Shown here piece after piece: positions 10,568-29,397 of a stretch of 64,000 nucleotides of DNA. Numbering within the stretch: the stretch's first letter is position 1; each line of letters opens with the position of its first letter. The stretch comes from Thermoanaerobaculia bacterium (GTDB taxonomy: Bacteria > Acidobacteriota > Thermoanaerobaculia > UBA5066 > Gp7-AA6): assembly GCA_036395755.1 (NCBI GenBank), contig DASWCZ010000056.1, forward strand, positions 12,074 to 76,073, given 5' to 3'. Under the pieces are notes generated by a model that saw only the letters and a program-made list of their open reading frames with translations, had not been told where the DNA came from and ran no database searches. The translations under genes and the position numbers were made by a program.

Positions 10568-10573
10568 GGAGAT

Positions 10574-10652: not shown

Positions 10653-11597
10653 ATGGTTCGGATGGCCGTGATGAGTCCGCGTGAGCGCTTTGCGGGCTCC
10701 GTTCTGCCCGCGACGCGGGAGCTTTCGGACCTCCTGATCTCGGCGCGGCCGGCGCAGTGGGTCAAGAATCTCGTCCTGCCCCTGCCGTTTCTGTTCGGGG
10801 GCGCGCTCGCGTCCGCGCGCGGGTGGAAGCTCGCCGCGGCCGGGTTCGTGGTCTTCTGCGCGGTCACGAGCGCGATCTACCTCTTCAACGACGTCATGGA
10901 TCGGGAGCGCGACCGCGCCCATCCGGTCAAGCGGCGACGTCCCTTGGCCGCCGGGTCCCTCGCCATCGCGTCCGCAATCGGTGTCGCGGCGTCGCTCGGC
11001 GCCGGAGGACTGGCGGCGGCGTTTCTGCTCGGAGAGCGGTTCGGTCTCTGGTGCGCGTTGTACGCCCTGCTGATGCTCGCGTACTCGCTCTGGCTGAAGC
11101 GGATTCCCTTTGTCGAGGCCTTGATCGTCGCGGCGGGCCTTCCTCTTCGTGCGCTCGCCGGCGCCGCCCTCGCGGGGTTGCCCGCGTCCGCCTTTCTCAT
11201 GGGCTGTGCGTACCTGCTCGCGCTCTTCCTCGTGATCGGAAAGAGGCAGTGGGAGTTGCAGCACGCCGGAAACGTCTCCTCCTCCGAGCACCGGCCGGTC
11301 CTCGCCTCGTATCGGCACGAAGGACTCGACTTCCTCTTCGTCGTCACGGCGCTCTCGACCGTCGCCGCGTATTCCGCGTACACGGTCGTTCCCACGACCC
11401 TCGCAATGCACGGCGGCCGATCCCTCGCCTCGACCGTACCCTTCGTCGTCCTCGGCGTCGCGCGGTACGTCCGGCTCGTCTATCGGAGGGGCGGGGGCGG
11501 AAGCCCCACCCGCGCTCTCTTGATCGACGACCCCTGGATCCTTCTGATCGTGATGGGCTGGGTCGCGGCGGCCGGCTGGGTCATCTATGCCCGCTGA
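10653..11597 (+). CDS. UbiA-family polyprenyl-phosphate phosphoribosyltransferase (decaprenyl-phosphate phosphoribosyltransferase-like)
   Basis: RPAQWVKNLVLPLPFLFGG and NDVMDRERDRAHPVKRRRPLAAG resemble the Rv3806c-type DPPR synthase motif. Polytopic membrane protein. ATG at 10653, with alternative ATGs at 10662 and 10671. Confidence 0.8.
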   Translation: MVRMAVMSPRERFAGSVLPATRELSDLLISARPAQWVKNLVLPLPFLFGGALASARGWKLAAAGFVVFCAVTSAIYLFNDVMDRERDRAHPVKRRRPLAAGSLAIASAIGVAASLGAGGLAAAFLLGERFGLWCALYALLMLAYSLWLKRIPFVEALIVAAGLPLRALAGAALAGLPASAFLMGCAYLLALFLVIGKRQWELQHAGNVSSSEHRPVLASYRHEGLDFLFVVTALSTVAAYSAYTVVPTTLAMHGGRSLASTVPFVVLGVARYVRLVYRRGGGGSPTRALLIDDPWILLIVMGWVAAAGWVIYAR

Positions 11598-12339
11598 CAA
11601 GGAGCCGCGACTCGGAGTCGGCTTCCTCGCATACAACGAGGAGGGCGCGATCGCCAAGACCGTGGCGGAGGCGGTCGCGTCGCTTTCGGCCGTCGAAGGT
11701 CTCGACTGGCGGATCCTGATCGTCAACGACGGAAGCCGGGACCGGACCGGCGAGATCGCGGAGTCCCTCGCCGCCGCGGACCCGCGGGTCTCGGTCGTGC
11801 ACCACGACGGAAACAAGGGATACGCGGTCGCCACGGAGACGGCGCTGCGCAACGCGCCGGGCGAAGTCGTGATGGTCGTGGACGGGGACGGACAGCACAC
11901 CATGGCCGACGCGCCGCGGTTTCTTGAGGCGATCCGGGAAGGCGCGGACGTCGTCTTCGGCTGGAAGAAGAAGCGCCACGACCCCTTTCCCCGGCTCGTC
12001 CTCTCGAAAGGCTTGAACACGCTCTCCCGCTGGATCCTCGGCTCTCCGCTCCATGACATCAATGGCGGCTGCCGCGCGTTCCGGAAGGACGTGGCCAGGC
12101 GGATCGAGATCCGGCATCGCATCAATTTCGTCGGCGACGAGATCTTCGCGCGGTGCCGGATCGCCGGATGGAAAGTCTCAGAGGTCGTCGTACGCCACTT
12201 CCCCCGGGAAGCGGGGCAGAGCATCCACCGCCCCTGGAAGATGCTCGGAACGATCTCCCGGGTCCTGCGCTACCTCTTCGAGCTCCGCGGAGAAATCCGC
12301 CGGGCCGACGCGATGAGACGTCTGGTCGGAGCGCGCTGA
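11587..12339 (+). CDS. GT2 glycosyltransferase (polyprenyl-phosphate sugar synthase/Dpm1-like)
   Basis: GVGFLAYNEE, VNDGSRDRT and VVDGDGQH are GT-A motifs. The start overlaps the UbiA gene end by 11 nt. Confidence 0.85.
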   Translation: MPADKEPRLGVGFLAYNEEGAIAKTVAEAVASLSAVEGLDWRILIVNDGSRDRTGEIAESLAAADPRVSVVHHDGNKGYAVATETALRNAPGEVVMVVDGDGQHTMADAPRFLEAIREGADVVFGWKKKRHDPFPRLVLSKGLNTLSRWILGSPLHDINGGCRAFRKDVARRIEIRHRINFVGDEIFARCRIAGWKVSEVVVRHFPREAGQSIHRPWKMLGTISRVLRYLFELRGEIRRADAMRRLVGAR

Positions 12340-12353
12340 GCGCGCCGACACGC

Positions 12354-13709
12354 ATGCCACGGATCGCGATCCTCGGGGGAGGCCCAACCGGCCTCGGCGC
12401 GGCGTACCGGCTTCGCGAGCGCGGCGTCGACGACTTCGAGGTCTTCGAGAGGGCCGGCCAGATCGGTGGGCTGGCCACCAGCTTCGAGGACGCGAAGGGT
12501 TACACGTGGGACGTGTCTGGCCACATCATTTTTTCGGGCTACCCGTACTTCAACGAGTTCCTCGAGAAGATGCTCGGCAAGGAGGGAATCCGGCGGATCG
12601 ATCGGGAGAGCTGGATCAAGTTCGAGGACCGTTACGTCCGCTATCCCTTCCAGAACCACCTGTCGTCGCTGCCCGAGCAGGCGATGCTCGAATGCCTGAT
12701 CGGCCTCGTCGAATCGCAGACGATCGACCGGGATCGCGCCTTCAAGAACTTCGAGGAATGGGTGTTCGCGAAGTTCGGCGCGGGGGTCTCGAAGCACTTC
12801 ATGATCCCTTACAACGAGAAGGTCTGGTCCACGCCGCTTTCGCAGATGGGGTTTTACTGGATCGCCGAAAGGGTGAGCGTCGTCGACTGGAAGAAGGCGC
12901 TCGAGACCGCGCTCCTTCCGAAGAACGTCGACTGGGGACCGAACGCGACCTTCGGCTATCCGGCCACGCGCGGGACGGTCGGGCTGTGGCTGGCTGTCCT
13001 GCCCTACCTGGGCGACCGCCTGCGCTGTCGCAAGCGAGCCGTCTGCGTGGACGAGGACGAGCGGGAAATCCGGTTCGCCGACGGCTCATCGGCGAGTTAC
13101 GAAAAACTTCTGACCACGCTGCCGCTCGAAGCCTTCGTCGCTCGACTCGCCCGCGCACCCGAGAGCGTGCGCGCGGCGTCGAAGAGGCTCCTCTTCAATC
13201 GGTTGTTCACGGTGGGGGTGGGACTGAAGCGGCCTTCGCCGTCGACGAAGAACTGGATCTACTTCCCGAACCCGAAGACGCCGTTCTACCGCATGACTTA
13301 CCTCTCGAACTATTCCCCCGACATCGTTCCGGGAGGGGACACGTCGCGACACTGCTCGCTGCTCACGGAGACGACCTACTCGCGGTTCCGGCCGCTGCCC
13401 GGCGGCGATTTCGCGAAATCCGTCGTGGACGGTCTCGTCGCCGAAGAGATCCTGCAGCCGGCAGACCTGCCGGCGATCGAGTCCGTGTACTTGATCCACG
13501 CCGCGCATGCCTATCCGATCCCGAGCGTGGACCGGGACGAGGCGCTCGGGACGATCCAGTCCTATCTCGAGTCGAAGGAGATCTACTCGCGCGGGCGCTT
13601 CGGATCCTGGAAGTACGAGATCGGAAACCAGGACCACTCGCTTATGCAGGGCAAGGAGGTCGTCGACCGCTGGCTGGATGGCTCGGAAGAGAAGGTATTC
13701 CGGAGCTAG
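12354..13709 (+). CDS. glf: FAD-dependent UDP-galactopyranose mutase, eukaryotic (GLF/UgmA)-type
   Basis: Rossmann motif IAILGGGPTGLGAAYRL. Blocks matching fungal/kinetoplastid UGM as I recall it: YTWDVSGHIIFS, YPFQNHLSSLP, WGPNATFGYPATRGTVGLW, WIYFPNPKTPFYRMTYLSNYSP, HAYPIPSVDRDEAL, YSRGRFGSWKYEIGNQDHSLMQG. The ATG at 12354 is the first Met after the GT2 stop. Confidence 0.8.
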   Translation: MPRIAILGGGPTGLGAAYRLRERGVDDFEVFERAGQIGGLATSFEDAKGYTWDVSGHIIFSGYPYFNEFLEKMLGKEGIRRIDRESWIKFEDRYVRYPFQNHLSSLPEQAMLECLIGLVESQTIDRDRAFKNFEEWVFAKFGAGVSKHFMIPYNEKVWSTPLSQMGFYWIAERVSVVDWKKALETALLPKNVDWGPNATFGYPATRGTVGLWLAVLPYLGDRLRCRKRAVCVDEDEREIRFADGSSASYEKLLTTLPLEAFVARLARAPESVRAASKRLLFNRLFTVGVGLKRPSPSTKNWIYFPNPKTPFYRMTYLSNYSPDIVPGGDTSRHCSLLTETTYSRFRPLPGGDFAKSVVDGLVAEEILQPADLPAIESVYLIHAAHAYPIPSVDRDEALGTIQSYLESKEIYSRGRFGSWKYEIGNQDHSLMQGKEVVDRWLDGSEEKVFRS

Positions 13710-13734: not shown

Positions 13735-15681
13735 GTGACGTTGAGACGGAACGGACTCCCGCCCGTCTGGGCGGTCGCGATCGCCCTCCTCGGCCTTTTC
13801 CTGATCGTGGTCGCGCACGTGCCCATGCAACGCCAGCAGATGCCGGCCTGGGCGGCGGCGGCGCTCGTATCCGGCGTGATGGTCTGGGTCGCGCTCGCGA
13901 TCCGTTTTCCCCCTGCGAAAGAGGACCTCGGGCCGCTCGCGCCGTCCGCCGGCGGTCCGCGAATCGTCCCGCTCGCGCTCTGCGCCGTTCTCGCGCCCCT
14001 CGCCTGGATCCACTCGGCCGGCGGGACCTACCGCACGGCCGGAGTGGCGGCGTGGATCGGCGCGGTCGCGTGCTGGCTGGCCGCCTGGCTCCCCGGGAGA
14101 GAGGCGCGCGCGGCGGTGGCGTCCCCGGCCCGATCGGGAGTTCCCGGGCGGGTCCGGGCCCTTGCGGCTCTCGCGGGCATCCTCGTCATCGGCGCGTGGT
14201 TCCTCTTCCACGGGCTCGCCGCGACGCCGGCCAACCCGACGAGCGACCACGCCGAGAAGCTTCTGGACGTCCTCGATCTCATCAACGGGGAGCGCCCGAT
14301 CTTTTTCGTCCGCAACACGGGGCGGGAGCCGTTCCAGTTCTACTGGACTTTCGCTCTGATCGAGATTTTCGGGTTACCGCTCAAATACCTGACTTTGAAG
14401 ATTGGCACCGCTGTCATCGGGCTGGCCGCGCTGCCCGCTCTGTATCTGCTCGGCTGCGAGATGGGCGGCGTGGCCCTGGGCCTCTCGGTGGCGGCCCTCG
14501 CGGCCTGGAGCAAGTGGCCCGTCTCGCTCGCCCGGCAGGGCCTGCGGTACCCGCTGGCAGTCCTACCGGCGGCCGTCGTTCTCTGGGCCCTCCTGCGCTA
14601 CGTCCGCCGGGGCGATCGGGCCTCGGTTCTCTGGGCGGGAGCCGTGATCGGGCTGGGTCTGCACGGATACATCTCCTTTCGGGCCGTGCCTCTCCTGGTC
14701 CCACTCGCGTTCGCGTTCGCTCTCGCCGACCGCCGGAGACGCGGGAGACGAATGGCCGTCGTGGGAGACGGTCTGCTGATCGCGGCGACCGCCGTTCTCG
14801 TTGCCCTGCCCCTCCTTCACTACACGGTGGAGCACCCGGAGCAGTTCTGGTATCGCGCCGCGACGCGAGTCGCGAGCCTCGAGAGACCGATCGGGCAGGA
14901 GCCGCTCGCGATCTTCGGACAGAACGTTCTCCACATGCTTCTCGCGTTCGATTGGCGCGGCGCCTCGACGTGGGTCGTGATCCGCCAGGGCGAGCCTTTC
15001 CTGGATGCGGCCACGGCTGGACTTCTGGTCGCCGGCGTCGTTCTTCTGGCGGCCCGCATTGCGCGGCGATCGTTGCGGTGGACGATCGTCGCTCTCGCGT
15101 TCTTCGTTCTGACGCTTTCCTCGACCCTCTCTCTCGCCTTTCCCGACGAGAACCCCAGCATCAACCGGAGCGGCACGGTGATTCCGGTCATTTTTCTCCT
15201 CGCCGCGCTCCCCGTCGTGGAGCTCCTCGCCCGCCCGCGGCGCCGGATCGCATCGCTCCTGGCCGGCGCCGGCATCGCGATCCTCTTCGTCTTGTCCGGG
15301 ATCCAGAACTACCGCGATTACTTCATCGGCTTCCACCGGAGCTACGAGCAGTCCGTGGATCACTCGATGGCGATGGCTCGCGTCCTCGACGACTACCGCA
15401 GGCAGGGCGTGCCTCTCCGACAGATGTACCTGCTCTACTCCGACTACTGGGTGGACGGACGCAACATCGCGTTCGAGCTCGGCGAGCCATCCTGGGCCTC
15501 CGGCCAGGTCTTCGACCCTGGCAAGCTGCCGCCGGACACCGGAGCGCGTCCTCTCATCTTCCTGCTCGCGCCGGGTAACCCGATCCTGGAGAAGCTCGAG
15601 AAGACCTATCCGACGGGGAAGGTTCGGACCGTCGTCCAGAACTTCGCCGACCGCAACTTCTACGTCTACTCCGTTCCCTGA
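13735..15681 (+). CDS. GT-C fold membrane glycosyltransferase (GT39/ArnT/PMT_2-like)
   Basis: 648-aa polytopic protein from GTG 13735 (VTLRRNGLPPVWAVAIALLGLFLIVVAH). It has many TM helices and a C-terminal soluble domain, with no similarity to transporters. The upstream part of the 13507 ORF overlaps the mutase gene. Confidence 0.7.
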   Translation: MTLRRNGLPPVWAVAIALLGLFLIVVAHVPMQRQQMPAWAAAALVSGVMVWVALAIRFPPAKEDLGPLAPSAGGPRIVPLALCAVLAPLAWIHSAGGTYRTAGVAAWIGAVACWLAAWLPGREARAAVASPARSGVPGRVRALAALAGILVIGAWFLFHGLAATPANPTSDHAEKLLDVLDLINGERPIFFVRNTGREPFQFYWTFALIEIFGLPLKYLTLKIGTAVIGLAALPALYLLGCEMGGVALGLSVAALAAWSKWPVSLARQGLRYPLAVLPAAVVLWALLRYVRRGDRASVLWAGAVIGLGLHGYISFRAVPLLVPLAFAFALADRRRRGRRMAVVGDGLLIAATAVLVALPLLHYTVEHPEQFWYRAATRVASLERPIGQEPLAIFGQNVLHMLLAFDWRGASTWVVIRQGEPFLDAATAGLLVAGVVLLAARIARRSLRWTIVALAFFVLTLSSTLSLAFPDENPSINRSGTVIPVIFLLAALPVVELLARPRRRIASLLAGAGIAILFVLSGIQNYRDYFIGFHRSYEQSVDHSMAMARVLDDYRRQGVPLRQMYLLYSDYWVDGRNIAFELGEPSWASGQVFDPGKLPPDTGARPLIFLLAPGNPILEKLEKTYPTGKVRTVVQNFADRNFYVYSVP

Positions 15682-20090: not shown

Positions 20091-20884
20091 GGCGCTTTCC
20101 TTTCCGCAAGATTCAGCCGGGAGACGGAGTTGTTGCCCGAATCGATGACATACAGAATATCTCGCCGACGATCGAGAGCGAGGCCGGTCGGCTTCGCGAA
20201 CTTGCGGCCCTGGTCGTCCGCGCTCCACGTGCGCTCGACCGAGCCCGAAGAGTCGAACGCGCGGACCGCGCCGGTGGCGGGGTCAGCGGCATAGATCGTT
20301 TCGTCGCGGCCGATTTCGATGTGCGGTTCGACCGGTCCTTGCCATCCGGGCACGTCGAAGGCGCGCTGGAACTGGCCCGACGCGTCCAGGATCACGACCC
20401 GGTGATTCCCGACGTCGGCGACGTACACCGAGCCCGACGGGCCGACGGCGATCCCGACGGGACTCGAGAACTCTCCCGGGCCCGATCCCTTCTTTCCGAC
20501 GACCTGCCGGTTCTGCAGGACGGCGTCGTAAGTCACGAGCTGATGGTTCCCGGTGTCGGTCACCCAGACCTTTCCCTCCGCGGAAATCGCGACGCCGCGC
20601 GGCCCGTAGAGGCCCGCCGCCGAACCTTTCGGCTCACCGGCGAGAGTGAAGGACTGGAGACGGCCGTTCCAGGTATCGGCGATGTACAGGTCCTCTCCCC
20701 GGATCGCCACGGCGCAGGGCTCCCGCAGTCCGAAGGTGCCGCTGCCGCGGCCGCCCCATCCGCCGAGGTATCCGCCTCCTCCGTCGAAGATCCGCAGCCG
20801 CGAGTTGCCGAAGTCCGCGATCCAGATCCTGCCCTTTCCGTCCACGTCGCCGTCCCGGGGCTCCCGCATGCCGGAGAAGGGGGG
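19068..20884 (-). repeat. tandem duplication of a 798-nt NHL-domain coding module (19068..19865 and 20087..20884)
   Basis: My gapless hand alignment of the two 265-aa translations finds 153 of 265 positions identical. Long identical runs include WIADFGNSR, GEDLY.ADTWNGR, GPGEFSSPVGI.VGPSG.VYVAD and PTGLALD. Confidence 0.85.
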
Positions 20885-23800: not shown

Positions 23801-25018
23801 GGCGACCGCGATCGCCGGAAGGAAACGCAGGACCCGGGCGCTCTGACGGCGCGCGCTTCGCGCGCGCGCGGCGAGGTCGCCGAGGAACAGCGTGGCGAGC
23901 ACCGCGAGCGCGGGGTACGCCGGGTAGAAATAGCGGATCGACTTGACGATCGAGAGGCCGTGGTAGAGCAGGAGAAACACGGCGTGCGCCACGAGCGGCA
24001 CGAGAGCCCGCCGCGCCCCCTTTCTCGCGACGAGAACGGCCCAGCCGAGCGCGGCGAGCGCCGGGAGCGCGAAGAACGGTCCGGCGCCCCAGAAAACCAT
24101 GTTTCCGATCGGGAAAAGGATCGTGCGTCCCGCCCATTGGAACGCGGGCGGGAATCCGGAGACGCTCGAGGAGAGCTCCGCCAGCCGCTTCATGTCCGCC
24201 AGGTAGCGCGGATCCAGCCGGAAGGAGAAGAATCCCGAGCCGGCGAACGCGTAAGGCAGGCCGAAACGCACCGCGACCGCCGCCGCCGCCAGGCAGAGGG
24301 CGAAGCGGCCCGCCATCCCGGCGATCCGGGGGCCGGGACTCCTCTCCTCTCGCGGCGTGTCGCGTCGAAAAGCGCCGATCAGGAGTCCCAGGCCGACCGG
24401 CACGAAGAGCGCGAGCGCGGTCACTTTGCAGGAGGCCGCGAAGCCGAGGGCGACACCGGTCAGGACGACTTCCAGGGGGCGGGAACGACCCTGCGCGAGG
24501 TGGACCGCGCCTAAGAGCGTCGCGGTAGAGAAGGCGGTCAGGAACGTGTCGACCGCCCAGAAGTGCGAGAGCTGAAGTCCGAGCGGACAGAATGCCAGAA
24601 GGGCCGCCGCCGCGAGCGCCAGCCGGCGATCTTTGGAGAACCGCCGGGCGAGAAGGTAGGCGAGCCACACCGAGGCTAAGTCCGCGAAGGCGGAGAGCAC
24701 CCGGCCGACGAGATAGGCGCCGCCGTAGCCGCTCTTTCCGAGGAGGCCGGCGACGGCTTTCGTCACGAAGATTGGCAGAGTTCCGTAGACGAACGAGTCG
24801 TGGCCGCGGTTGTAGGGGTTGAGCGATGACCGCGCCGAATCGAAGTACGCGGCCGGGCTCTTCGGGAACACGAGCTTCTCCTCGACCATCGAGATGAAGC
24901 GCTCGTCCGGGTGGAGATGGTGCCCCGCGTCCCAGTCGAGACCGGAGAGACGCAGGACGGCCCCAGCGGCGATCAGGACGAAAAAGAGCTGGCGGGCGCG
25001 GTGCCGGCTCAGGCGCAA
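20087..25018 (-). CDS. 1643-aa three-module envelope protein: GT-C (PMT_2/ArnT-like) + DUF2298 ('YYY', TIGR03662-like) + NHL beta-propeller
   Basis: TTG start at 25018 (MRLSRHRARQLFFVLIAAGAVLRL). First periplasmic loop has HPDERF. The central region has DTINEYPFWSLVFADLHAHVLAMPLFLL, typical of DUF2298. The last 265 aa are NHL repeats. Coding bias is continuous and there are no internal stops. Confidence 0.85.
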   Translation of the reverse strand: MRLSRHRARQLFFVLIAAGAVLRLSGLDWDAGHHLHPDERFISMVEEKLVFPKSPAAYFDSARSSLNPYNRGHDSFVYGTLPIFVTKAVAGLLGKSGYGGAYLVGRVLSAFADLASVWLAYLLARRFSKDRRLALAAAALLAFCPLGLQLSHFWAVDTFLTAFSTATLLGAVHLAQGRSRPLEVVLTGVALGFAASCKVTALALFVPVGLGLLIGAFRRDTPREERSPGPRIAGMAGRFALCLAAAAVAVRFGLPYAFAGSGFFSFRLDPRYLADMKRLAELSSSVSGFPPAFQWAGRTILFPIGNMVFWGAGPFFALPALAALGWAVLVARKGARRALVPLVAHAVFLLLYHGLSIVKSIRYFYPAYPALAVLATLFLGDLAARARSARRQSARVLRFLPAIAVAGTFLWGLAFTSIYRRPHPRVAAAKWIYENVPPPARFANESWDDALPLPLPGYDMGAYNGPQLTLFDPDSPRKVEDVVKVLKESDWIAVTSNRVYVNLTRIPAVFPMSRAYYSALFEGRLGFDLAADFNSYPTLGPLKVPDDRAEEQFTVYDHPRVVLFRKNKQFSPGRVTQILLASMPQTPPTLGDWEKWPRSKRTVTSPIYPPHRADFDKTLVGSGTREIAIGSFGAAILWYLGILLVGAVAFPLAHAFFPRLADRGAGVSRILGIVGTTFLFAVLVQLRILSNGRGAAWTCLALAALPSALLFFARRRLIIDFFRERRRLVVAGEAAFALGFLLFLGIRAFNPEIYWGEKPMDFSILNILVRTRTLPASDPWFAGAPLGYYAFGQQMIAFLTLLTGLSTRFTFNLAFGLLGGLMLQGSFTLLRNWTGTVRAGVAGAGLAVVLGNLSGLREWLLNHRALDWNYFWATSRIIKDTINEYPFWSLVFADLHAHVLAMPLFLLVGAAALHFVRVNSSPPARPISRIASGAILGFAAAAQALTNAWDAPLLAGLCGIVFLVTASAGRFAPAHLARMAPGVLTTVAAAWATAAPLWVHGGGSPGFGWEQEPGAKGVDVVTVFGLFFFLAFAWLLGFVSDRMAEQGLERRMRLILVAAVGGLLALLGFLSVEVFACAGVLLFFAAAADRATDPDERLACGFVAAAFFLILFTQKVYISDRMNTIFKLYLEAWLLFAVAAAALVFRPKDRRGVYGRWRFPPRAVLFLLAIAALFTTVTAARGAVSNHFAAYSGPTLDGLRYLEETRPGEYRAVLWLRRTIRGTPVLLEAHGDPYQDFSRISMLTGLPTVLGWEHHVKQRGNPETEVVERREAVERIYSSREAAPIEHLLRRYHVGYVYVGWLERKTYPAEGLRKFDRATDLFERAYENPEVKIYRVIGGDSQDVIVPAKENVPVAAGAAEVVEQEEAPAIAETAEQGRPPFSGMREPRDGDVDGKGRIWIADFGNSRLRIFDGGGGYLGGWGGRGSGTFGLREPCAVAIRGEDLYIADTWNGRLQSFTLAGEPKGSAAGLYGPRGVAISAEGKVWVTDTGNHQLVTYDAVLQNRQVVGKKGSGPGEFSSPVGIAVGPSGSVYVADVGNHRVVILDASGQFQRAFDVPGWQGPVEPHIEIGRDETIYAADPATGAVRAFDSSGSVERTWSADDQGRKFAKPTGLALDRRRDILYVIDSGNNSVSRLNLAERKAP

Positions 25019-25157: not shown

Positions 25158-25991
25158 TCACGCCGGCTTGCGCGCCTTCACGGAGAGGATCACGGCGCTC
25201 CGGCCCTCCTCGCGCGGGCGATTCCAGGAGTCGATCGCATTCAGCAGCGAGCGTGCGACGTGGAGCGGCCTCCAGGAGCGGCCCGGGGCGTCCCCATAAC
25301 GGAATCGGTCCGCTTGAGGCAGCACTCCCGATTCGACCAGCCGCATGCCGAGTCCGTACACCAGATTATGAGCGAACGGAAAACAGTGGTGCACGAACTG
25401 CCGGGGGTCCTCGGCGACGAGATCGGCTCGCCTGACGAGATCGATCAGCTTTTCGCGCGTGTAGAGACGCACGTGGTTCGTCCAGATTCCTCCGAAGAAT
25501 CCGCTGCGGATCGGCGCAAGTCCGAGACGTTCCAGCGACCAGTTGATCGGATCCCATAGGAACGGGTAGTCGTGATTGGGGACCGTGATCGCGATCGTTC
25601 CGCCCGGCCGGACGACGCGCTTGACCTCGAGCAGTCCCGGAAGATCTTCGGGAAGGTGCTCCAGGACTTCCGACAGGATGACCTTGTCGAACGCCCCGTC
25701 CGCGTAGGGGAGGCGGGTGACGCTGCCGGCCGCGAGCGACACGCGGGAAGAGATCTCGGCTCGCGCGCGGCGGAGCCTCGGCAGATCGTTGTCGATGCCG
25801 GTCAACCGGCAGGGCGCGAGCTCGTCGATGACCTTCAGGAACCACCCGAGACCGCAGCCGCAGTCGAGAACGCGCTCGCCCGGCCGGGGCTGGAGGTACT
25901 CGAGCACGATCCGCAGGCGGTGTTTGGCCGCCATGTCCGCTTCGTTCGCGAGCATCCGCTGGAGCTTCGCGGCATCGTCGGGCGTGCTCAC
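25158..25991 (-). CDS. class I SAM-dependent methyltransferase
   Basis: VLDCGCGLGW (motif I), FDKVILSEVLEHL and RVVRPGGTIAITVP. GTG at 25991 overlaps the GT4 stop as GTGA. The rest of the 702-aa ORF is Arg/Pro-rich artefact. Confidence 0.85.
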   Translation of the reverse strand: MSTPDDAAKLQRMLANEADMAAKHRLRIVLEYLQPRPGERVLDCGCGLGWFLKVIDELAPCRLTGIDNDLPRLRRARAEISSRVSLAAGSVTRLPYADGAFDKVILSEVLEHLPEDLPGLLEVKRVVRPGGTIAITVPNHDYPFLWDPINWSLERLGLAPIRSGFFGGIWTNHVRLYTREKLIDLVRRADLVAEDPRQFVHHCFPFAHNLVYGLGMRLVESGVLPQADRFRYGDAPGRSWRPLHVARSLLNAIDSWNRPREEGRSAVILSVKARKPA

Positions 25992-27145
25992 CACCGCGGT
26001 CGGAAGGCCCGCGCCGGAGAAGGCGTCTCCAGGCGCTCCAGCACGCCCTCGTACTCCGACACGCACCGTTTCGGGTCGAACAGGTCTTCGATTGCCTGGC
26101 GCGGCCGCACGTATTTTTCCCTTTCGTCGAGCACGGCGAGGATGCCGGCCGCCAGGGCCGCCGGGTCGGCCGGCTCGACCGTCAGTCCCATGCCGGTCTC
26201 GCGGACCGGGACCCGCGCGCCGGGGATGTCCGTCGCCACGACGGGCGTTCCGCACATCATCGCCTCCGGCTGCACCAGCGCAAGGCAGTCGGTCCGGCTC
26301 GGCAGGACGAAGACGTCGAGCATCGAGTAGAAATTCGCGAGCTTCTGCGGGTCGGAGACCAGCCCGAGCATCGTTACATGGGGCCGCACCTTCTCCAGGA
26401 GCGCCGCGCACCGCGAGAAGAAATCCTCGTACCCCATCCGGGTCTCTCCCGCGTAGACGAAGTGCGCGTCGGGCGCCTTCGCGAGAACATCGGGAATCGC
26501 CTGCAGGAGGTAGTCGAACCCCTTTTCCTCGACCCAGCGGCCCGCGAACCCCACCAGGCGCCGACCCGAGAGGTTGAGCTCCGCCTTCCACCGCGAGGAG
26601 TCTTCGGAGCGAGGCACCGGAATCACCACCGGCGGCAGGATCGCGTCGGTCTTCTGAAGGTACGGCTGGAGGAAAGGGGAATGGCTCGCGTAGTCGGTGC
26701 TGTACGCAACGATCCGGGTCGCCTGGGAGAGCGCGCGACGCATCAGGAAGGTCACCGCGCGCTCGACCGCTTGGTTGAGTAGTCCCGCCGGCATCGTCAG
26801 GTCGCCGTGGTGTGTCAGGACGACCGGCTTCTTCAGGAGGCGCCCGAACAGTGTGACGAGAGGAGCTTCCAGAATCGGGGTGTGGACCTGCACGACGTCG
26901 GCCCGGCGCATCTCGCGCCACAACGCCGCCGGAAACGACGGCATCACCACGCCCCGGCTCACGCGGCCCATGACCGGGAGGCGGACGACGCGGACACTCT
27001 CGATCGTTTCCTCGAGAGCGAGCTTCGGATCGTGACGGGAGGTCAGGACCGTCACGGAGTGGCCTCCGGCCGCGAGCCCTTCCGCCAGACGCTTCGCGTA
27101 CGCGGTCAGGCCCGTCCAGTGGGGGTGGTAGTACGTCAGGATCAT
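25988..27145 (-). CDS. GT4 glycosyltransferase
   Basis: MILTYYHPHWTGLTAYAKRLAEGLAAGGHSVTVLT and the E-x7-E region PSRTDCLALVQPEAMMCGTPVVATD. ATG at 27145. Confidence 0.88.
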   Translation of the reverse strand: MILTYYHPHWTGLTAYAKRLAEGLAAGGHSVTVLTSRHDPKLALEETIESVRVVRLPVMGRVSRGVVMPSFPAALWREMRRADVVQVHTPILEAPLVTLFGRLLKKPVVLTHHGDLTMPAGLLNQAVERAVTFLMRRALSQATRIVAYSTDYASHSPFLQPYLQKTDAILPPVVIPVPRSEDSSRWKAELNLSGRRLVGFAGRWVEEKGFDYLLQAIPDVLAKAPDAHFVYAGETRMGYEDFFSRCAALLEKVRPHVTMLGLVSDPQKLANFYSMLDVFVLPSRTDCLALVQPEAMMCGTPVVATDIPGARVPVRETGMGLTVEPADPAALAAGILAVLDEREKYVRPRQAIEDLFDPKRCVSEYEGVLERLETPSPARAFRPRW

Positions 27146-27192
27146 CAAGATCCGGCGGCGGGACGTCGCATCCCGCAGCGGGGCGGCAGCGC

Positions 27193-29397
27193 TCACTTCT
27201 GCGGCCGGACGCGGTAGATCGCGGTCGCGCCGCCCCGGGCGGGCTCCAGGAACGGGAACGCCGCAACCCGCGGCGCCTCCGGATAAGCGCTGCGCTCGAG
27301 GTCTCCCACGATCACGTGAGTCACGTGATAACGGTCGAGGATTTGGTGCGCGGCCCGGGGGTCCGACGCCGAGTAGAACTTGCGCACCTCCTCCAATCGG
27401 GCCATCACCTCGGGGGCGTTCGACCGCCACAGCCCTTCGTGGTTCGCCCAGCCCATCACGGTGGGGATGCCAGTGTGGGAGGAGATCCGGGCGTACTCCG
27501 TGTACGGGTTCCCCGAGGCTTCCATCACGACCGACCTGCTCGGCGCGTTCTTTACGAGCCACTCGATCGCCTGGAGGTCCCCGGGGTTTCGCCGTCTGAG
27601 CGCCCGCCGCGCATCGAGGGAGAAGGCTCCGTCGCGCTGGCGCAGGCGGGAGACCGCGGCGGTCATCGGGTAGAGCAGAGCGGCGAACACCGCCAGAACG
27701 AGGACGAAAACGAGCGACCGCCGCGGCACCTTCGTGGCCCGCCACGCGCGGTCCACGAACACGACGGCGCCGATTCCCAGCAGAGGCCAGGCCTGGTGAT
27801 AGAACTTGAAGATCGTGTTCATACGGTGCAGCTGCTCGCCGTAGGAGTCCTTGAAGTAGACGACCTCGCATCCGGCGATCATCCCGAGCGCGAGAAGACA
27901 GAGAAAGGCGGCGAACAGGACGCCGCGGTCCGGCTCGCGCCGGAGGGAACGCCACGCGGCGCGGCCGGCGAGAAAAACGAGAAAAAGGATCGGGGCGAGC
28001 GCGGGGGCCTTCCTCGCGAACGCGAGACCGAGGGAAACGACCGCCGCTGCCGCGAGAAGAAAGTCGCGCCAACGCCGTCCTTCCTCGGTGTCTTCGGGAG
28101 CGGAAAGAAGAAGTCCCGTCGCCGCGACGGCGAACAGGATCCCCCAGACGCCCAGGAATTCGAGGATGCCGGACGTCGCGTGGGTCTTTCCGATTCCGTT
28201 GTAGGGCAGATGGTAGGAGGTCCGATAGGGCTGTGTCAGGAAGAGCGCGAGGAGGACCGCTCCGGCGCCGGTCAACGCACCCGACAGGGCCGTTCCGAGC
28301 CGCGGCAGCCCCTCGCCGCGCGTCGTGCGGGCCGCGCCGGCAAAGACGAGCAGCATCGCGATCGCCGGGGCGTTCCAGAGGTTCGCTCCGATTGCCGCCG
28401 CCGCGACGAGCGCAACGAGAAGGAACGGTGCCCATCGCGAGAGGAAAGACCCGGCGGCGGGTTTTGACTCTGGACCCTGATCTCTCGACTCCGGCAATCC
28501 GGCTTCGATCCATCGATCCGCAACCGCGAAAGTCGCCAGGAAGAAGGGGAAGGCGAGCAGGTGGGGGTGCAGGTCGGCGTGAAAGAACGTGAAGAACGGG
28601 AACTCGTTGATCGTGTCGCCCGAGCCGATGACGCGCGAGGCGTGGAAGTAGTCGAAATCCCTGGCGAACGGTGTCGCCCAGGCCTCGAACGCGCCGGCCA
28701 GATTTCCCGCGAAAACGCTCGCGAAGCCGGCCCCGATCGCCGCCGCAGTCCGTCCCCGGGAAAGGCGAAACCCGAGACACGCCGCCGCGGCGAAGGAGTA
28801 CCCGGCGAAGGTCGCGATCGCGAGGTTGTAGGCGACGAATGGAGTGACCCCGGCCGCTTTCGCGACCGTGGCCGCCAGCAGGTAGCCCCAGTAGTAGTAG
28901 TTGATCGTGTTCCCCGCCATCCACGGATCGGCGGGGGGCATGTCGGGCCATCGCGTGAGCGAGTTGAAGAACGCGAGATCCATGAACTTCTCGGCTCCGA
29001 GGATCTCGGGGACCGCGGCCCGGATCACGAGGAAGATCGCGGCCGGCGCCCAGAAGAAGAGCGCGCCCCGGTTTTCCTCCGGGCCCCAGAAGCGACCGGT
29101 CTCACGGCCGGCCCTGCGGCGGGAGAAGAAGGACGCGCCGGCGAGAGCCGCGACCGACAGAAGAATCGTGCCGCGCGAAAAGCCGAACGGGAGCACCAGA
29201 GACAGGGCCCACGCGAGCCAGCCGGCGAGGACGAGGCCGACCGGCCGCGAGAGGAGCGCGGCGTCGCGCCGGTTGGCGAAGAAGAGGCGAAGCGCCGGCA
29301 AGACCGCGAGACCGAGGATCTCGACGGCCAGGGCCCAGGCCAAGATGTTCCGCACTGAGAAGAGTTTATAGTCCAAGTCCGCGGTCGCAGGGGGCAC
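27193..29397 (-). CDS. DUF2298 ('YYY', TIGR03662-like) polytopic membrane protein
   Basis: 734 aa with DTINEFPFFTFFHADLHPHLLAFPFFLATF and a YYYWGY motif. It is paralogous to the central module of the 1643-aa protein. GTG start at 29397, with an alternative GTG at 29355. Confidence 0.82.
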   Translation of the reverse strand: MPPATADLDYKLFSVRNILAWALAVEILGLAVLPALRLFFANRRDAALLSRPVGLVLAGWLAWALSLVLPFGFSRGTILLSVAALAGASFFSRRRAGRETGRFWGPEENRGALFFWAPAAIFLVIRAAVPEILGAEKFMDLAFFNSLTRWPDMPPADPWMAGNTINYYYWGYLLAATVAKAAGVTPFVAYNLAIATFAGYSFAAAACLGFRLSRGRTAAAIGAGFASVFAGNLAGAFEAWATPFARDFDYFHASRVIGSGDTINEFPFFTFFHADLHPHLLAFPFFLATFAVADRWIEAGLPESRDQGPESKPAAGSFLSRWAPFLLVALVAAAAIGANLWNAPAIAMLLVFAGAARTTRGEGLPRLGTALSGALTGAGAVLLALFLTQPYRTSYHLPYNGIGKTHATSGILEFLGVWGILFAVAATGLLLSAPEDTEEGRRWRDFLLAAAAVVSLGLAFARKAPALAPILFLVFLAGRAAWRSLRREPDRGVLFAAFLCLLALGMIAGCEVVYFKDSYGEQLHRMNTIFKFYHQAWPLLGIGAVVFVDRAWRATKVPRRSLVFVLVLAVFAALLYPMTAAVSRLRQRDGAFSLDARRALRRRNPGDLQAIEWLVKNAPSRSVVMEASGNPYTEYARISSHTGIPTVMGWANHEGLWRSNAPEVMARLEEVRKFYSASDPRAAHQILDRYHVTHVIVGDLERSAYPEAPRVAAFPFLEPARGGATAIYRVRPQK

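What the first reader, a model, noticed from the sequence alone, without database searches (positions are those of the whole stretch)
10653..29397. Very large lipid-carrier / GT-C glycosylation supercluster with no recognisable acceptor, flippase or polymerase
In under 19 kb I read these genes:
- a UbiA-type polyprenyl-phosphate phosphoribosyltransferase;
- a Dpm1-like GT2;
- a eukaryotic-type UDP-galactopyranose mutase;
- a GT4;
- two methyltransferases (FkbM-type and class I);
- four large polytopic GT-C-like proteins (13735..15681, 16513..19071, 20087..25018, 27193..29397).

A second block at 32013..36187 adds a fifth GT-C-like protein and another Dpm1-like GT2.

I see none of the usual polysaccharide machinery: no Wzx/Wzy/Wzz, ABC exporter, WbaP/WecA-type initiating transferase or O-antigen ligase. 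The composition instead suggests repeated transfer of single sugars from polyprenyl-phosphate donors on the periplasmic face, as in ArnT, PMT or mycobacterial Emb/Aft enzymes, onto an unknown acceptor. The density of GT-C paralogues and their fusion to NHL propellers is not a described system as far as I know.
Basis: partly seen in the sequence, partly recalled or inferred. Interest (0 to 1): 0.82.

Follow-up and report, generated by a model that had tools for sequence, protein, structure and literature searches.

The report
Conserved multi-GT-C envelope glycosylation gene cluster
An uncultured Acidobacteria (Thermoanaerobaculia) genome carries a real, conserved 19-kb cluster that appears to make lipid-linked sugars and attach them outside the cytoplasmic membrane using five GT-C-type transferase modules; its target is unknown, its parts are of known kinds, and its central protein family (DUF2298) has never been studied.

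Summary
Window 10653-29397 holds two convergent, translationally coupled operons.

- **Plus strand:** a UbiA-type enzyme closest to M. tuberculosis polyprenyl-phosphate phosphoribosyltransferase, a Dpm1/ArnC-like GT2, a eukaryotic-type UDP-galactopyranose mutase and an ArnT-like GT-C.

AlphaFold models place the two unclassified membrane proteins in the GT-C fold. DUF2298 is closest to DPY19/STT3/AglB, and the 13735 protein to ArnT. Both keep conserved acidic motifs in the first outside loop of the GT-C module.

About 19 Thermoanaerobaculia genomes keep the whole arrangement. A core of GT-C, GT4, methyltransferase, an SDR epimerase and DUF2298 is shared with Chloroflexota.

No Wzx/Wzy/ABC exporter or initiating transferase lies in the 64 kb. 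"No flippase" is unsafe, because archaeal Agl23 (TIGR03663) flips lipid-linked glycans in vitro. "Undescribed" is overstated, since the TIGR03662/03663 pairing (recalled from TIGRFAMs text, not re-read) and three-component pentofuranose systems are already described.

Verdict: a new variant of a known kind, with the acceptor unknown. Interest 0.55.

The parts
8495..10867 (-). Ser/Thr protein kinase (790-aa ORF; the kinase domain is residues 112-374, and the C-terminal 400 aa match no family). It is a divergent upstream neighbour and a possible regulator.
   Evidence: Pkinase E=7e-40. It is syntenic upstream of UbiA in L007, L008, L009, L019, L029 and L045. The C-terminal half has no Pfam hit.
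10653..11597 (+). UbiA-family polyprenyl-phosphate phosphoribosyltransferase-like enzyme (314 aa, about 8 TM helices). Its inferred product is polyprenyl-P-ribofuranose-5-P made from PRPP.
   Evidence: PF01040. NF008977, NF008978 and NF008976 score 182, 175 and 135 bits, all below their equivalog cutoffs, while other UbiA subfamilies score 49 bits or less. PDB 8j8j Rv3806c matches at E=4e-31 over the full length, against 8e-4 for a 4-hydroxybenzoate prenyltransferase.
11587..12339 (+). Soluble Dpm1/ArnC/GtrB-like GT2 (250 aa, no TM helix). Its inferred activity is polyprenyl-phosphate hexose synthase.
   Evidence: PF00535. The best NCBIfam hit is the haloarchaeal dolichyl-phosphate hexose transferase. 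The best PDB hits are Dol-P-Man synthase 5mlz (2e-17), ArnC and GtrB.
12354..13709 (+). Eukaryotic-type UDP-galactopyranose mutase (451 aa), which would make UDP-galactofuranose.
   Evidence: PDB 4dsg (T. cruzi UGM) E=7e-93, aligning residues 2-443; Aspergillus UGM 3ute E=4e-88.
13735..15681 (+). GT-C glycosyltransferase (648 aa). It has four extra N-terminal helices, then a GT-C module with an invariant D171-H-A-E174-K-L-L-D178 motif in its first outside loop, and a small C-terminal alpha/beta domain.
   Evidence: It has no family hit of its own. Its homologues carry PF13231 and are named GT39. The AF2 model has pLDDT 93.3 and pTM 0.93. The top Foldseek hits are ArnT 5f15 (E=5e-8), then STT3, AglB, PglB, AftA, Pmt4, ALG9 and Emb.
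15666..16526 (-). FkbM-family SAM methyltransferase (286 aa), the last gene of the minus-strand operon.
   Evidence: PF05050 E=3e-20 and TIGR01444 at 108.9 bits (cutoff 37.7). It is conserved in relatives.
16513..19071 (-). TIGR03663 (Agl23-like, PMT_2-type GT-C) membrane domain fused to a C-terminal NHL beta-propeller (852 aa). A DE motif (HHDES, residues 49-53) and an HGP motif (residues 75-77) follow TM1.
   Evidence: TIGR03663 at 340.7 bits (cutoff 126.25). PMT_2 at 41.1 bits, PMT at 32.6 bits and NHL at 4.6e-40. The motifs were read.
19068..20090 (-). NHL beta-propeller protein with an N-terminal signal or anchor helix (340 aa). It is a tandem duplicate of the propeller in the next gene.
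   Evidence: NHL 1.8e-34. It is 55% identical to window 20090-20980. The N-terminal hydrophobic segment spans residues 21-39. Its GTGA start overlaps the upstream stop codon.
20087..25018 (-). 1643-aa fusion protein. It has an N-terminal PMT-like GT-C module (DE motif HPDERF, residues 36-41), a second GT-C module of the DUF2298/TIGR03662 type (residues 632-1336, which keeps EKPMD and DLHAH), and a C-terminal NHL propeller (about residues 1450-1640).
   Evidence: PF02366 at 48.3 bits, PF10060 at 265 bits and NHL at 4.7e-31. TIGR03662 at 457.7 bits (cutoff 300.25). The motifs were read.
25158..25991 (-). Class I SAM methyltransferase (277 aa).
   Evidence: Methyltransf_11, _25 and _31. It is conserved next to the GT4 in Acidobacteriota and Chloroflexota loci.
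25988..27145 (-). GT4 (GT-B, cytoplasmic) glycosyltransferase (385 aa).
   Evidence: The source annotation gives Glyco_transf_4 and Glycos_transf_1. NCBIfam gives only low-scoring GT4 hits. The best PDB hits are SPS 6kih (1.5e-13), PimA 4n9w/2gej (about 7e-13) and PimB'. It is 36-56% identical in about 35 Chloroflexota loci.
27193..29397 (-). Stand-alone DUF2298/TIGR03662 'YYY' protein (734 aa). It has a GT-C fold closest to DPY19, STT3 and AglB, with an AglB-like C-terminal globular domain. Family-wide conserved residues are E136, D140, D157, W159, Y167, G171, E265, D275, H277, H279, E511, D517, W650, H653 and E654.
   Evidence: PF10060 at 306 bits and TIGR03662 at 474 bits. The AF2 model has pLDDT 86.8 and pTM 0.91. 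The Foldseek top 10 are all GT-C enzymes at probability 1.0, and 3vu0 matches the C-terminal domain. Conservation was measured over 116 diverse members.
32013..36187 (+). Second, probably separate Arn-like module beyond three LigD genes. It holds a 388-aa membrane protein (borderline PIG-V/GT-C hit), a class I methyltransferase (33176-33973), a DegT/LegC-like aminotransferase (33970-35082), a Dpm1/ArnC-like GT2 (35070-35813) and a WbuC-like cupin (35813-36187).
   Evidence: It is present in the 78% relative L004 but not at this position in the 60% relative L003.

Best explanation
The locus encodes an extracytoplasmic glycosylation system that runs on polyprenyl-phosphate-linked monosaccharides.

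**Cytoplasmic face (inferred from family membership)**
- The UbiA-like enzyme couples PRPP to polyprenyl phosphate, giving polyprenyl-P-ribofuranose-5-P.
- The mutase makes UDP-galactofuranose.
- The Dpm1/ArnC-like GT2 loads a hexose, possibly galactofuranose, onto polyprenyl phosphate.
- The GT4 and the two methyltransferases build or trim a primer glycan. In sister genomes a CDP-tyvelose-2-epimerase-like SDR also takes part.

**Membrane crossing (inferred)**
- The lipid-linked sugars cross the membrane, plausibly with the help of the Agl23-like TIGR03663 protein.

**Periplasmic face (inferred)**
- Five GT-C modules transfer the sugars onto an envelope acceptor: one ArnT-like, one Agl23/PMT_2-like, one PMT-like and two DUF2298.
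- The NHL propellers (in Chloroflexota, TPR arrays instead) hold the acceptor.
- My best guess for the acceptor is one or more envelope proteins (about 0.35). This would be an archaeal Agl-like pathway in which DUF2298 acts as an STT3/DPY19-like transferase. A GT4-primed glycolipid or wall glycan, as in mycobacterial LM/LAM/arabinan assembly, is nearly as likely (about 0.3).

**Shown versus inferred**
- Shown here: gene content, family and fold assignments, conserved motifs, operon structure and synteny.
- Inferred: every enzymatic step, the identity of the sugars, the flipping step and the acceptor.

The confidence of 0.6 applies to the general mechanism (polyprenyl-phosphate-sugar donors used by GT-C enzymes outside the cytoplasm), not to the choice of acceptor.
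For: - **Donor-making enzymes.** UbiA sits closest to the DPPR synthases. The GT2 is closest to Dol-P-Man synthase, ArnC and GtrB. The mutase matches eukaryotic UGM over its full length.
- **GT-C modules.**
  - PMT and PMT_2 hits above threshold, with DE motifs after TM1, in two proteins.
  - TIGR03663 and TIGR03662 above their cutoffs.
  - High-confidence AF2 models whose best PDB neighbours are exclusively GT-C enzymes.
  - Invariant acidic residues on the first outside helix of the GT-C module: D171/E174/D178 in the 13735 family, and E136 (100%) and D140 (91%) across 116 diverse DUF2298 proteins.
- **Location of the propellers.** The NHL-only paralogue has an N-terminal signal or anchor helix, which puts these propellers outside the cytoplasm.
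- **Operon structure.** Overlapping stop and start codons point to co-translated operons.
- **Synteny.**
  - The whole arrangement is kept in about 19 Acidobacteriota species-level genomes, at 45-76% identity for the 13735 protein.
  - The core of GT-C, GT4, methyltransferase, SDR epimerase, DUF2298 and a PMT-like protein recurs in Chloroflexota, including cultured Kallotenue and Herpetosiphon. A UbiA homologue lies within 10 kb in 8 loci: 7 Chloroflexota and 1 Actinomycetes MAG.
- **Precedents.**
  - Three-component PPPRS + flippase + GT-C systems (PMC11127046).
  - Agl23 flipping in vitro (PMC11182771).
  - Known from the literature rather than tested here: the mycobacterial UbiA/Glf/GT2/AftB locus and the Haloferax Agl pathway.
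Against: - No biochemical or genetic data exist for any protein of this locus or for any DUF2298 protein (literature searches).
- The UbiA and GT2 scores are below the NCBIfam equivalog cutoffs, so their substrates are not established.
- The cluster has no candidate phosphoribose 5-phosphatase, no DprE1/E2, and no MATE, SMR or GtrA flippase (Pfam scans).
- The SDR epimerase kept in sister genomes and in Chloroflexota is missing from this window.
- The TM-scores of DUF2298 to solved GT-C enzymes are modest (0.33-0.41).
- DUF2298 shows no sequence-level link to any solved structure or to the 13735 family.
- Operon A (GT2 + UGM) was not found in the Chloroflexota loci. The two halves may therefore be separable modules rather than one pathway.
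- The acceptor is unknown.
Confidence: 0.6

Rival explanations
1. The cluster is a mycobacterial-style lipoglycan or wall-polysaccharide assembly line. The PimA-like GT4 primes a membrane glycolipid, or a lipid-linked primer, in the cytoplasm. After flipping, the GT-C enzymes polymerise furanose- and hexose-containing chains from polyprenyl-P donors, as PimE, MptA/B, Emb and Aft do. The methyltransferases add O-methyl caps, and the NHL propellers act as carbohydrate-binding modules.
For: - The enzyme types match the mycobacterial AG/LAM set: Rv3806c-like UbiA, a UGM, a Ppm1/Dpm1-like GT2, a GT4 with PimA and PimB' among its best PDB hits, and multiple GT-C enzymes with AftA and Emb among their structural neighbours.
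- The core is shared with Chloroflexota. From memory, unverified here, their walls carry pentose- and O-methyl-sugar-rich polysaccharides.
- Extracytoplasmic polymerisation would explain the lack of Wzx/Wzy/ABC genes.
Against: - No Arabinose_trans, AftA or GT87 family hit.
- No DprE1/E2 or PAP2 phosphatase.
- The GT4 similarity to PimA is weak (E about 1e-13) and generic for GT4.
- NHL and TPR domains are classically protein-binding.
- DUF2298's nearest folds are protein glycosyltransferases.
Confidence: 0.3
2. This is not one system but neighbouring independent modules. Operon A (UbiA-GT2-UGM-GT-C) is a Gtr/Arn-like side-chain modification unit. It decorates an O-antigen, EPS or lipid A made elsewhere in the genome. 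Operon B (DUF2298, GT4, methyltransferase, PMT-like and Agl23-like genes) serves a different, unrelated target.
For: - Operon A's GT2 and UGM were absent from all Chloroflexota loci that carry the operon-B-type core.
- The two operons are convergent rather than co-transcribed.
- A third Arn-like module (32013-36187) lies nearby and comes and goes between relatives.
- Three-component modifiers are typically add-ons to glycans made elsewhere (PMC11127046).
Against: - In about 19 Acidobacteriota genomes spanning 45-76% identity the two operons stay adjacent.
- The 13735-type GT-C, the last gene of operon A, is the very gene that travels with GT4, the methyltransferase and DUF2298 in Chloroflexota.
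- UbiA homologues also recur next to that core in 8 loci outside the Acidobacteriota.
Confidence: 0.2
3. The TIGR03663 and/or DUF2298 proteins are not transferases. They are translocators or recyclers of lipid-linked sugars or of free polyprenyl phosphate. Only the ArnT-like and PMT-like modules are catalytic.
For: Purified Haloarcula Agl23 (TIGR03663) translocates M5GN2-PP-Dol in proteoliposomes and rescues yeast rft1 deletion (PMC11182771). NCBI names the family as flippase-associated.
Against: - Both families keep the hallmarks of catalytic GT-C enzymes: the DE and HGP motifs, and an invariant set of acidic and His residues plus a conserved C-terminal domain motif in DUF2298.
- Such conservation of extracytoplasmic acidic residues is not expected of a scramblase.
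- The fold neighbours are all enzymes.
Confidence: 0.12

Closest known systems
Three-component extracytoplasmic pentofuranose glycosylation systems (Citrobacter youngae O1/O2: PPPRS ORF15, MATE flippase ORF14, GT136 GT-C ORF12, and optionally the SDR epimerase ORF13; Kelly et al. 2024, PMC11127046)
   Same: - A UbiA-type polyprenyl-phosphate phosphoribosyltransferase lies in an operon ending with an ArnT-like GT-C.
- That GT-C carries a D-x-x-E motif after its first GT-C helix (D171/E174 here; D31/E34 in ORF12).
- An SDR epimerase is present in some genomes and absent in others.
   Different: - The UbiA here has no fused or adjacent phosphoribose phosphatase.
- There is no MATE or SMR flippase.
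- There are five GT-C modules instead of one.
- There is an additional hexose branch (GT2 + UGM).
- NHL propellers take the place of a CBM.
- No O-antigen cluster lies alongside.
- GT136 membership was not tested.
Mycobacterial arabinogalactan/LAM machinery (Rv3806c UbiA, Glf, GT2, AftB locus; PimA/PimB' GT4; Ppm1; PimE, Emb and Aft GT-C enzymes)
   Same: It uses the same set of enzyme classes. The logic is also the same: cytoplasmic priming by GT-B enzymes, then periplasmic extension by many GT-C enzymes from polyprenyl-P-sugars. The UbiA's best solved relative is Rv3806c.
   Different: - No DprE1/E2 and no Rv3807c-type phosphatase.
- No Emb, Aft or GT87 family hits.
- The UGM is of the eukaryotic type rather than the bacterial Glf type.
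- The GT2 is a short Dpm1-like enzyme, not GlfT2.
- The host is a diderm acidobacterium.
Archaeal Agl protein-glycosylation pathways (Haloferax/Haloarcula: AglJ/AglD/Agl22 Dol-P-hexose GT2s, AglP methyltransferase, Agl23, AglS, AglB oligosaccharyltransferase)
   Same: - The GT2's top NCBIfam hits are the haloarchaeal Dol-P-hexose transferase and AglJ.
- A bona fide TIGR03663/Agl23 family member is present.
- Methyltransferases sit in the cluster.
- DUF2298 is closest in fold to AglB/STT3, including the C-terminal globular domain.
   Different: - No STT3/AglB family protein is present and no WWDYG motif. DUF2298 has G-W-x-x-H-E-x-x-W-R instead.
- The host is bacterial.
- NHL fusions are present.
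- A phosphoribosyl branch is present.
TIGR03662 (Chlor_Arch_YYY / DUF2298) and TIGR03663 gene pair, as I recall it from the TIGRFAMs descriptions
   Same: Both families are present above their cutoffs and adjacent to each other. The multi-module fusion form is also present; as I recall, the TIGRFAMs text describes a class with an extra N-terminal region, repeated YYY domains and repeat-protein tails.
   Different: - This lineage carries NHL propellers instead of TPRs.
- It has one PMT-like and one YYY module rather than two YYY modules.
- It adds a donor-synthesis operon (UbiA-GT2-UGM).
- The recalled TIGRFAMs text assigns no function.

Membership tests
GT-C fold glycosyltransferase superfamily (tested for the four large membrane proteins) | A polytopic membrane domain whose predicted or solved structure superposes on known GT-C enzymes | tested here: met
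   - **13735-15681:** Foldseek top hits are ArnT, STT3, AglB, PglB, AftA, Pmt4, ALG9 and Emb at probability 1.0.
- **27193-29397:** the top 10 hits are DPY19, AglB and STT3 at probability 1.0, with modest TM-scores of 0.33-0.41.
- **16513-19071 and the N-terminus of 20087-25018:** PMT and PMT_2 Pfam hits above the gathering scores. No models were made for these two.
GT-C fold glycosyltransferase superfamily | A conserved acidic residue or motif in the first extracytoplasmic loop of the GT-C module | tested here: met
   - HHDES (residues 49-53) in the Agl23-like protein, and HPDERF (residues 36-41) in the 1643-aa protein.
- Invariant D171, E174 and D178 in the 13735 family.
- E136 (100%) and D140 (91%) across 116 DUF2298 proteins.

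The position relative to the helices was taken from the AF2 secondary structure. No 3D superposition on the catalytic residues was done.
TIGR03663 / Agl23 family | HMM score above the curated cutoff, plus the family's DE and HGP motifs near the N-terminus | tested here: met
   340.7 bits against a cutoff of 126.25, aligned over residues 26-457. The DE motif is at residues 50-51 and HGP at residues 75-77.
TIGR03663 / Agl23 family | Translocation of lipid-linked glycans | not testable with these tools
   This has been shown only for Haloarcula Agl23, in vitro and in yeast (PMC11182771).
TIGR03662 / DUF2298 (YYY domain) | HMM score above the curated cutoff, plus the YYYxG motif | tested here: met
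   - **27193-29397:** 474 bits (cutoff 300.25), with N166-Y-Y-Y-W-G171 invariant.
- **20087-25018:** 457.7 bits, but the motif is degenerate (GYYAFG).
Three-component pentofuranose system (PMC11127046) | Polyprenyl phosphoribose synthase of the UbiA/DPPRS type | tested here: inconclusive
   The nearest subfamily is clearly DPPRS. All three equivalog models score below their cutoffs, for example 182 bits against 234. Activity was not tested.
Three-component pentofuranose system (PMC11127046) | A phosphoribose 5-phosphatase (fused PRP/HAD domain or a separate enzyme) and a dedicated MATE or SMR flippase | tested here: not met
   The UbiA protein is 314 aa with only a UbiA domain. No HAD, PAP2, MATE, SMR or GtrA domain was found in any ORF scanned in the 64-kb window.
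Three-component pentofuranose system (PMC11127046) | A GT-C enzyme of CAZy family GT136 | not tested
   No GT136 sequence was on hand. The only shared points are an ArnT-like nearest structure and a D-x-x-E motif.
Oligosaccharyltransferase STT3/AglB/PglB (GT66) | STT3 family sequence signature and a WWDYG motif in the C-terminal domain | tested here: not met
   None of the window's proteins has a PF02516 hit. No PDB sequence match was found for DUF2298, either as a single sequence or as a profile. The conserved C-terminal motif is G649-W-x-x-H653-E654-x-x-W-R658, not WWDYG. Only the fold is similar.
Eukaryotic-type UDP-galactopyranose mutase | Full-length similarity to structurally characterised eukaryotic UGMs rather than to bacterial Glf | tested here: met
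   E=7e-93 to T. cruzi UGM and about 1e-88 to Aspergillus UGM over some 440 residues. No bacterial Glf appeared among the hits, and there was no PF03275 hit.
Mycobacterial arabinan pathway | DprE1/DprE2 epimerase pair and Emb/Aft-family arabinosyltransferases | tested here: not met
   No FAD_binding_4/ALO, DprE2-type SDR or Arabinose_trans hits were found in the window.
Wzx/Wzy-, ABC- or synthase-dependent polysaccharide pathways | Presence of Wzx/Wzy/Wzz, ABC exporter components, an initiating phosphoglycosyltransferase or an O-antigen ligase | tested here: not met
   None was found in any Pfam or NCBIfam scan of the window. None appeared in the annotated flanks of relatives either. The rest of the 168-kb contig and of the genome was not examined.

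The most novel reading that the evidence does not exclude
DUF2298/TIGR03662 is a previously unrecognised class of protein glycosyltransferase. It is STT3/DPY19-like in fold but unrelated in sequence, with its own catalytic signature (E136/D140, D275-x-H277-x-H279, G-W-x-x-H-E). With Agl23-like and PMT-like partners it forms an archaeal-type protein-glycosylation pathway that is widespread in Chloroflexota, Thermoanaerobaculia and, according to my recollection of the TIGRFAMs text, Archaea. In this lineage the pathway draws on lipid-linked ribofuranose and galactofuranose donors, and it uses NHL propellers to select its protein substrates.
Probability: 0.25. Interest if true: 0.8.

Novelty: new variant of a known kind. 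Interest (0 to 1): 0.55.

Why it matters
If the reading is right, the locus gives a first functional context for DUF2298. That family has about 6,450 sequence clusters at 50% identity and I found essentially no literature on it.

The reading also extends the recently defined polyprenyl-phosphoribose/GT-C glycosylation logic from O-antigen side chains and mycobacterial walls to Acidobacteriota and Chloroflexota. The envelope glycans of both phyla are, to my knowledge, almost unexplored.

It offers concrete, testable candidates:
- a possible lipid-linked galactofuranose donor;
- a non-STT3 enzyme with an OST-like fold;
- a bacterial Agl23 homologue, which bears on the open question of whether that family flips or transfers.

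Cultured carriers (Kallotenue, Herpetosiphon) make experiments feasible.

Tried and rejected
- **Profile-profile comparison** of the DUF2298 alignment against the 13735-family alignment gave no similarity. The shared "AEK" loop motif I noticed by eye is therefore not evidence of homology.
- **Sequence and profile searches of DUF2298 and the 13735 family against PDB chains** gave no meaningful hits. Only fold comparison links them to GT-C enzymes.
- **Frameshifts.** I first suspected frameshifts or a pseudogene in LigD and at the 1643-aa/NHL junction. Both are explained by separate genes with overlapping stop and start codons, which match the source gene calls.
- **PF14667 "Polysacc_synt_C" hit at 35813-36187.** I considered this a possible flippase fragment. 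I rejected that because the protein has no TM helix and also matches WbuC- and CapF-type cupins.
- **Literature.** Searches for DUF2298, TIGR03662 and "YYY domain" found nothing functional. The original Agl22/Agl23 paper is not held. A search for the composition of Herpetosiphon wall polysaccharide found nothing usable, so that lead rests on memory only.
- **Composition.** The GC profile shows no sign of recent horizontal acquisition: GC is 0.64-0.71 throughout.
- I left the third homologue search unused, because the top hits of the first two were all close relatives and a third would have added little.

Full report
**1. What is in the sequence**

The window is 64-71% G+C throughout. I picked real frames by codon-position GC and refined starts from overlapping stop and start codons. 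The resulting models match the gene calls of the source assembly, an ENA metagenome contig of 168 kb. Named homologues come from Thermoanaerobaculia, a class of Acidobacteriota.

Between 10653 and 29397 there are two convergent operons.

Plus strand:
- UbiA (10653-11597)
- GT2 (11587-12339)
- FAD enzyme (12354-13709)
- 648-aa membrane protein (13735-15681)

Minus strand, read in the direction of transcription:
- DUF2298 protein (29397-27193)
- GT4 (27145-25988)
- class I methyltransferase (25991-25158)
- 1643-aa protein (25018-20087)
- NHL-only protein (20090-19068)
- 852-aa protein (19071-16513)
- FkbM methyltransferase (16526-15666)

Most junctions are 4-bp GTGA or ATGA overlaps, which suggests translational coupling. 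It missed the NHL-only gene, and the 1643-aa protein contains two GT-C modules.

**2. Identities**

- **UbiA.** It scores 182, 175 and 135 bits on the three NCBIfam decaprenyl-phosphate phosphoribosyltransferase models, against 49 bits or less on other UbiA subfamilies. All three scores are below the equivalog cutoffs. Its best solved relative is M. tuberculosis Rv3806c (E=4e-31, full length), while an ordinary prenyltransferase scores 8e-4.
- **GT2.** A 250-aa soluble enzyme, closest to Pyrococcus Dol-P-Man synthase, ArnC and GtrB.
- **FAD enzyme.** An unambiguous eukaryotic-type UDP-galactopyranose mutase (E=7e-93 to the T. cruzi enzyme).
- **GT4.** Generic; SPS, PimA and PimB' are its best solved relatives.
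- **852-aa protein.** A TIGR03663 member (340.7 bits, cutoff 126) with PMT_2 and PMT hits, DE and HGP motifs after TM1, and a C-terminal NHL propeller.
- **1643-aa protein.** A PMT-like module with an HPDERF motif, a TIGR03662/DUF2298 module (457.7 bits) and an NHL propeller.
- **734-aa protein.** A stand-alone TIGR03662/DUF2298 protein (474 bits).
- **NHL-only protein.** It has an N-terminal hydrophobic anchor and is 55% identical to the propeller of the 1643-aa protein. This places these propellers outside the cytoplasm.

**3. Are the two unclassified membrane proteins GT-C?**

The 13735 protein has no family hit of its own. Its homologues carry PF13231 and are named GT39. Its AlphaFold model (pLDDT 93.3, pTM 0.93) matches ArnT best (E=5e-8), followed by STT3, AglB, PglB, AftA, Pmt4, ALG9 and Emb, all at probability 1.0. 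After four extra N-terminal helices, the first outside loop of the GT-C module carries an invariant D171-H-A-E174-K-L-L-D178. This is reminiscent of the D31-x-x-E34 catalytic pair of the GT136 ribofuranosyltransferase (PMC11127046).

DUF2298 has no sequence relative among solved structures. Its model (pLDDT 86.8, pTM 0.91) has ten significant PDB neighbours, and all are GT-C enzymes: the C-mannosyltransferase DPY19, archaeal AglB, and human and yeast STT3. TM-scores are modest (0.33-0.41). Its C-terminal globular domain separately matches the C-terminal domain of a short AglB.

Across 116 diverse family members (26-55% identity to the query) a set of acidic and histidine residues is nearly invariant:
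- E136 (100%), D140, D157, E265
- D275-x-H277-x-H279
- E511 and D517
- a C-terminal G-W-x-x-H-E-x-x-W-R motif

E136 and D140 sit on the first outside helix after the helix equivalent to GT-C TM1.

**4. Is the neighbourhood conserved?**

Yes.
- Relatives at 78% and 60% identity keep LigD | DUF2298-GT4-MT-(SDR epimerase)-PMT/DUF2298/NHL-NHL-Agl23-like/NHL.
- A relative at only 45% identity keeps kinase | UbiA-GT2-UGM-(extra membrane protein)-GT-C, facing FkbM-NHL-Agl23-like/NHL-PMT/DUF2298/NHL-MT.
- A scan of one genome per species found 469 loci encoding a relative of the 13735 protein; the 79 best loci were kept. In about 19 Acidobacteriota loci with enough flank, UbiA, GT2, UGM, the GT-C, the Agl23-like protein and the 1643-aa protein all lie within 10 kb.
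- In Chloroflexota, including cultured Kallotenue and Herpetosiphon, the same GT-C travels with the GT4 (36-56% identity, about 35 loci). It is often joined by the methyltransferase, a CDP-tyvelose-2-epimerase-like SDR (about 50% identity across phyla), DUF2298 and a PMT-like protein. In 8 loci (7 Chloroflexota and 1 Actinomycetes MAG) a UbiA homologue is also present.
- NHL domains, the GT2 and the UGM were found only in the Acidobacteriota loci.

The locus is therefore an old core shared across phyla, plus a lineage-specific donor operon and NHL decorations.

**5. What is absent**

No Wzx, Wzy, Wzz, ABC exporter, phosphoglycosyltransferase, O-antigen ligase, PAP2/HAD phosphatase, DprE1/E2 or MATE/SMR/GtrA flippase was found in any scanned ORF of the 64 kb. 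The flanks are as follows:
- upstream: glycogen metabolism, an outer-membrane protein and a kinase;
- downstream: three LigD genes, an Arn-like module, lipoate and 2-oxoacid dehydrogenase genes, and threonine biosynthesis.

The SDR epimerase kept by sister genomes is missing here. A 139-bp gap (25019-25157) lies in its place, and no copy exists elsewhere in the window. In Citrobacter, loss of an SDR epimerase switches the side-chain pentofuranose from xylose to ribose (PMC11127046). A comparable sugar switch is a reasonable but untested guess.

**6. Mechanism**

The best-supported explanation is extracytoplasmic glycosylation from polyprenyl-phosphate-monosaccharide donors.
- One donor would be a pentofuranose made from PRPP by the UbiA enzyme.
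- Another would be a hexose, possibly galactofuranose, made by the UGM and the GT2.
- The GT4 and the methyltransferases would do cytoplasmic priming or trimming.
- The Agl23-like protein may flip the lipid-linked sugars.
- Five GT-C modules would carry out the transfers, with the NHL propellers engaging the acceptor.

All enzymatic steps are inferred from family and fold.

The acceptor is open. I lean slightly towards proteins, for four reasons:
- the nearest characterised relatives of four of the five modules (PMT, Agl23/PMT_2, and STT3/AglB/DPY19 for the two DUF2298 modules) belong to protein-glycosylating families or pathways;
- NHL and TPR are protein-binding repeats;
- the GT2's best NCBIfam hit is an archaeal Dol-P-hexose enzyme of protein-glycosylation pathways;
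- the methyltransferase + GT4 + GT2 + Agl23 composition mirrors haloarchaeal Agl pathways.

A mycobacterial-style lipoglycan or wall polymer is nearly as likely: every enzyme class of the AG/LAM pathway is represented, and PimA is among the GT4's best hits. The alternative that the two operons serve different glycans is weakened by their conserved adjacency. It is also weakened because the last gene of operon A is the one that co-travels with the operon-B-type core in Chloroflexota.

**7. Comparison with what is known, and novelty**

- TIGR03663 now has an experimentally supported member, Agl23, which flips a lipid-linked glycan in vitro (PMC11182771).
- PPPRS + flippase + GT-C systems were defined in 2024, with mention of elaborate versions that have several GT-Cs (PMC11127046).

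Three things appear to be new:
- this combination of genes;
- the STT3/DPY19-like fold assignment and catalytic-signature candidates for DUF2298, which is absent from the literature I could search;
- the NHL-fused forms.

I rate the locus a new variant of a known kind.

Noticed in passing
window 25019-25157; compare L004:14154-15221 and L003:14134-15195: Sister genomes, and many Chloroflexota loci, carry a CDP-tyvelose-2-epimerase-like SDR (best PDB hits 9rl0, 1e-86, and 1orr, 8e-77) between the methyltransferase and the large fusion gene. This window has only a 139-bp gap at that position and no copy anywhere in the 64 kb. This may mean a different sugar epimer in this lineage.
   Followed up: partly
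window 29421-31989 (+): LigD is encoded as three separate, translationally coupled genes with GTGA overlaps: phosphoesterase (29421-30119), ATP-dependent ligase (30116-31069) and primase-polymerase (31066-31989). The start of the first gene lies only 23 bp from the divergent start of the DUF2298 gene. The split is conserved in relatives. In L003 the Prim-Pol gene call (651 aa) also carries a radical SAM hit.
   Followed up: partly
window 32013-36187 (+): This is an Arn-like module. It holds a 388-aa membrane protein with a borderline PIG-V (GT-C) hit, a class I methyltransferase, a LegC/PseC-like DegT aminotransferase, an ArnC/AglJ-like GT2 and a WbuC-type cupin. It is probably a separate lipid-linked amino-sugar modification unit. 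It is present in the 78% relative but not at this position in the 60% relative.
   Followed up: partly
window 12354-13709 (+): The UDP-galactopyranose mutase is of the eukaryotic type. It matches the trypanosome and Aspergillus enzymes over its full length at E about 1e-90, rather than the bacterial Glf type. How widespread this type is in bacteria was not examined.
   Followed up: no
window 43710-44870 (-), next to lipB/lipA (42104-43998): A further 386-aa membrane protein gives a sub-threshold PMT_2 hit (23.1 bits, cutoff 26.1). In relative L003 the equivalent region has two PMT_2 proteins and a methyltransferase, next to lipB, lipA and a TonB_C protein.
   Followed up: no
window 51405-55249 (+): An MftF-like GT2 with two C-terminal TM helices (53164-54141) is flanked by two ORFs of 571 and 361 aa that match no Pfam or NCBIfam family.
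   Followed up: no
window 37779-39710 (-): A 643-aa protein carries a C-terminal Peptidase_S74 (endosialidase intramolecular chaperone) domain. This domain is typical of phage tail fibres, yet the context shows no other phage genes. The ORF is not well supported by codon-position GC.
   Followed up: no
window 6836-10867: An outer-membrane Phenol_MetA_deg-family protein (6836-8464) and a Ser/Thr kinase with an unassigned 400-aa C-terminal half (8495-10867, minus strand) are syntenic with the UbiA operon in several relatives (L007, L008, L045). They may belong functionally to the system, for regulation or export.
   Followed up: partly
L007:7945-10008: Some relatives insert an additional 687-aa membrane protein with no family hit between the UGM and the 13735-type GT-C. 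It is absent from this window, and weak homologues (37-44% identity) occur in a few other loci.
   Followed up: no
window 1-6831 (+): A glycogen/alpha-glucan metabolism gene run: an alpha-amylase-family enzyme, GH57 with DUF3536, a glucan phosphorylase and a GH77 4-alpha-glucanotransferase. This is ordinary, and it bounds the cluster upstream.
   Followed up: no
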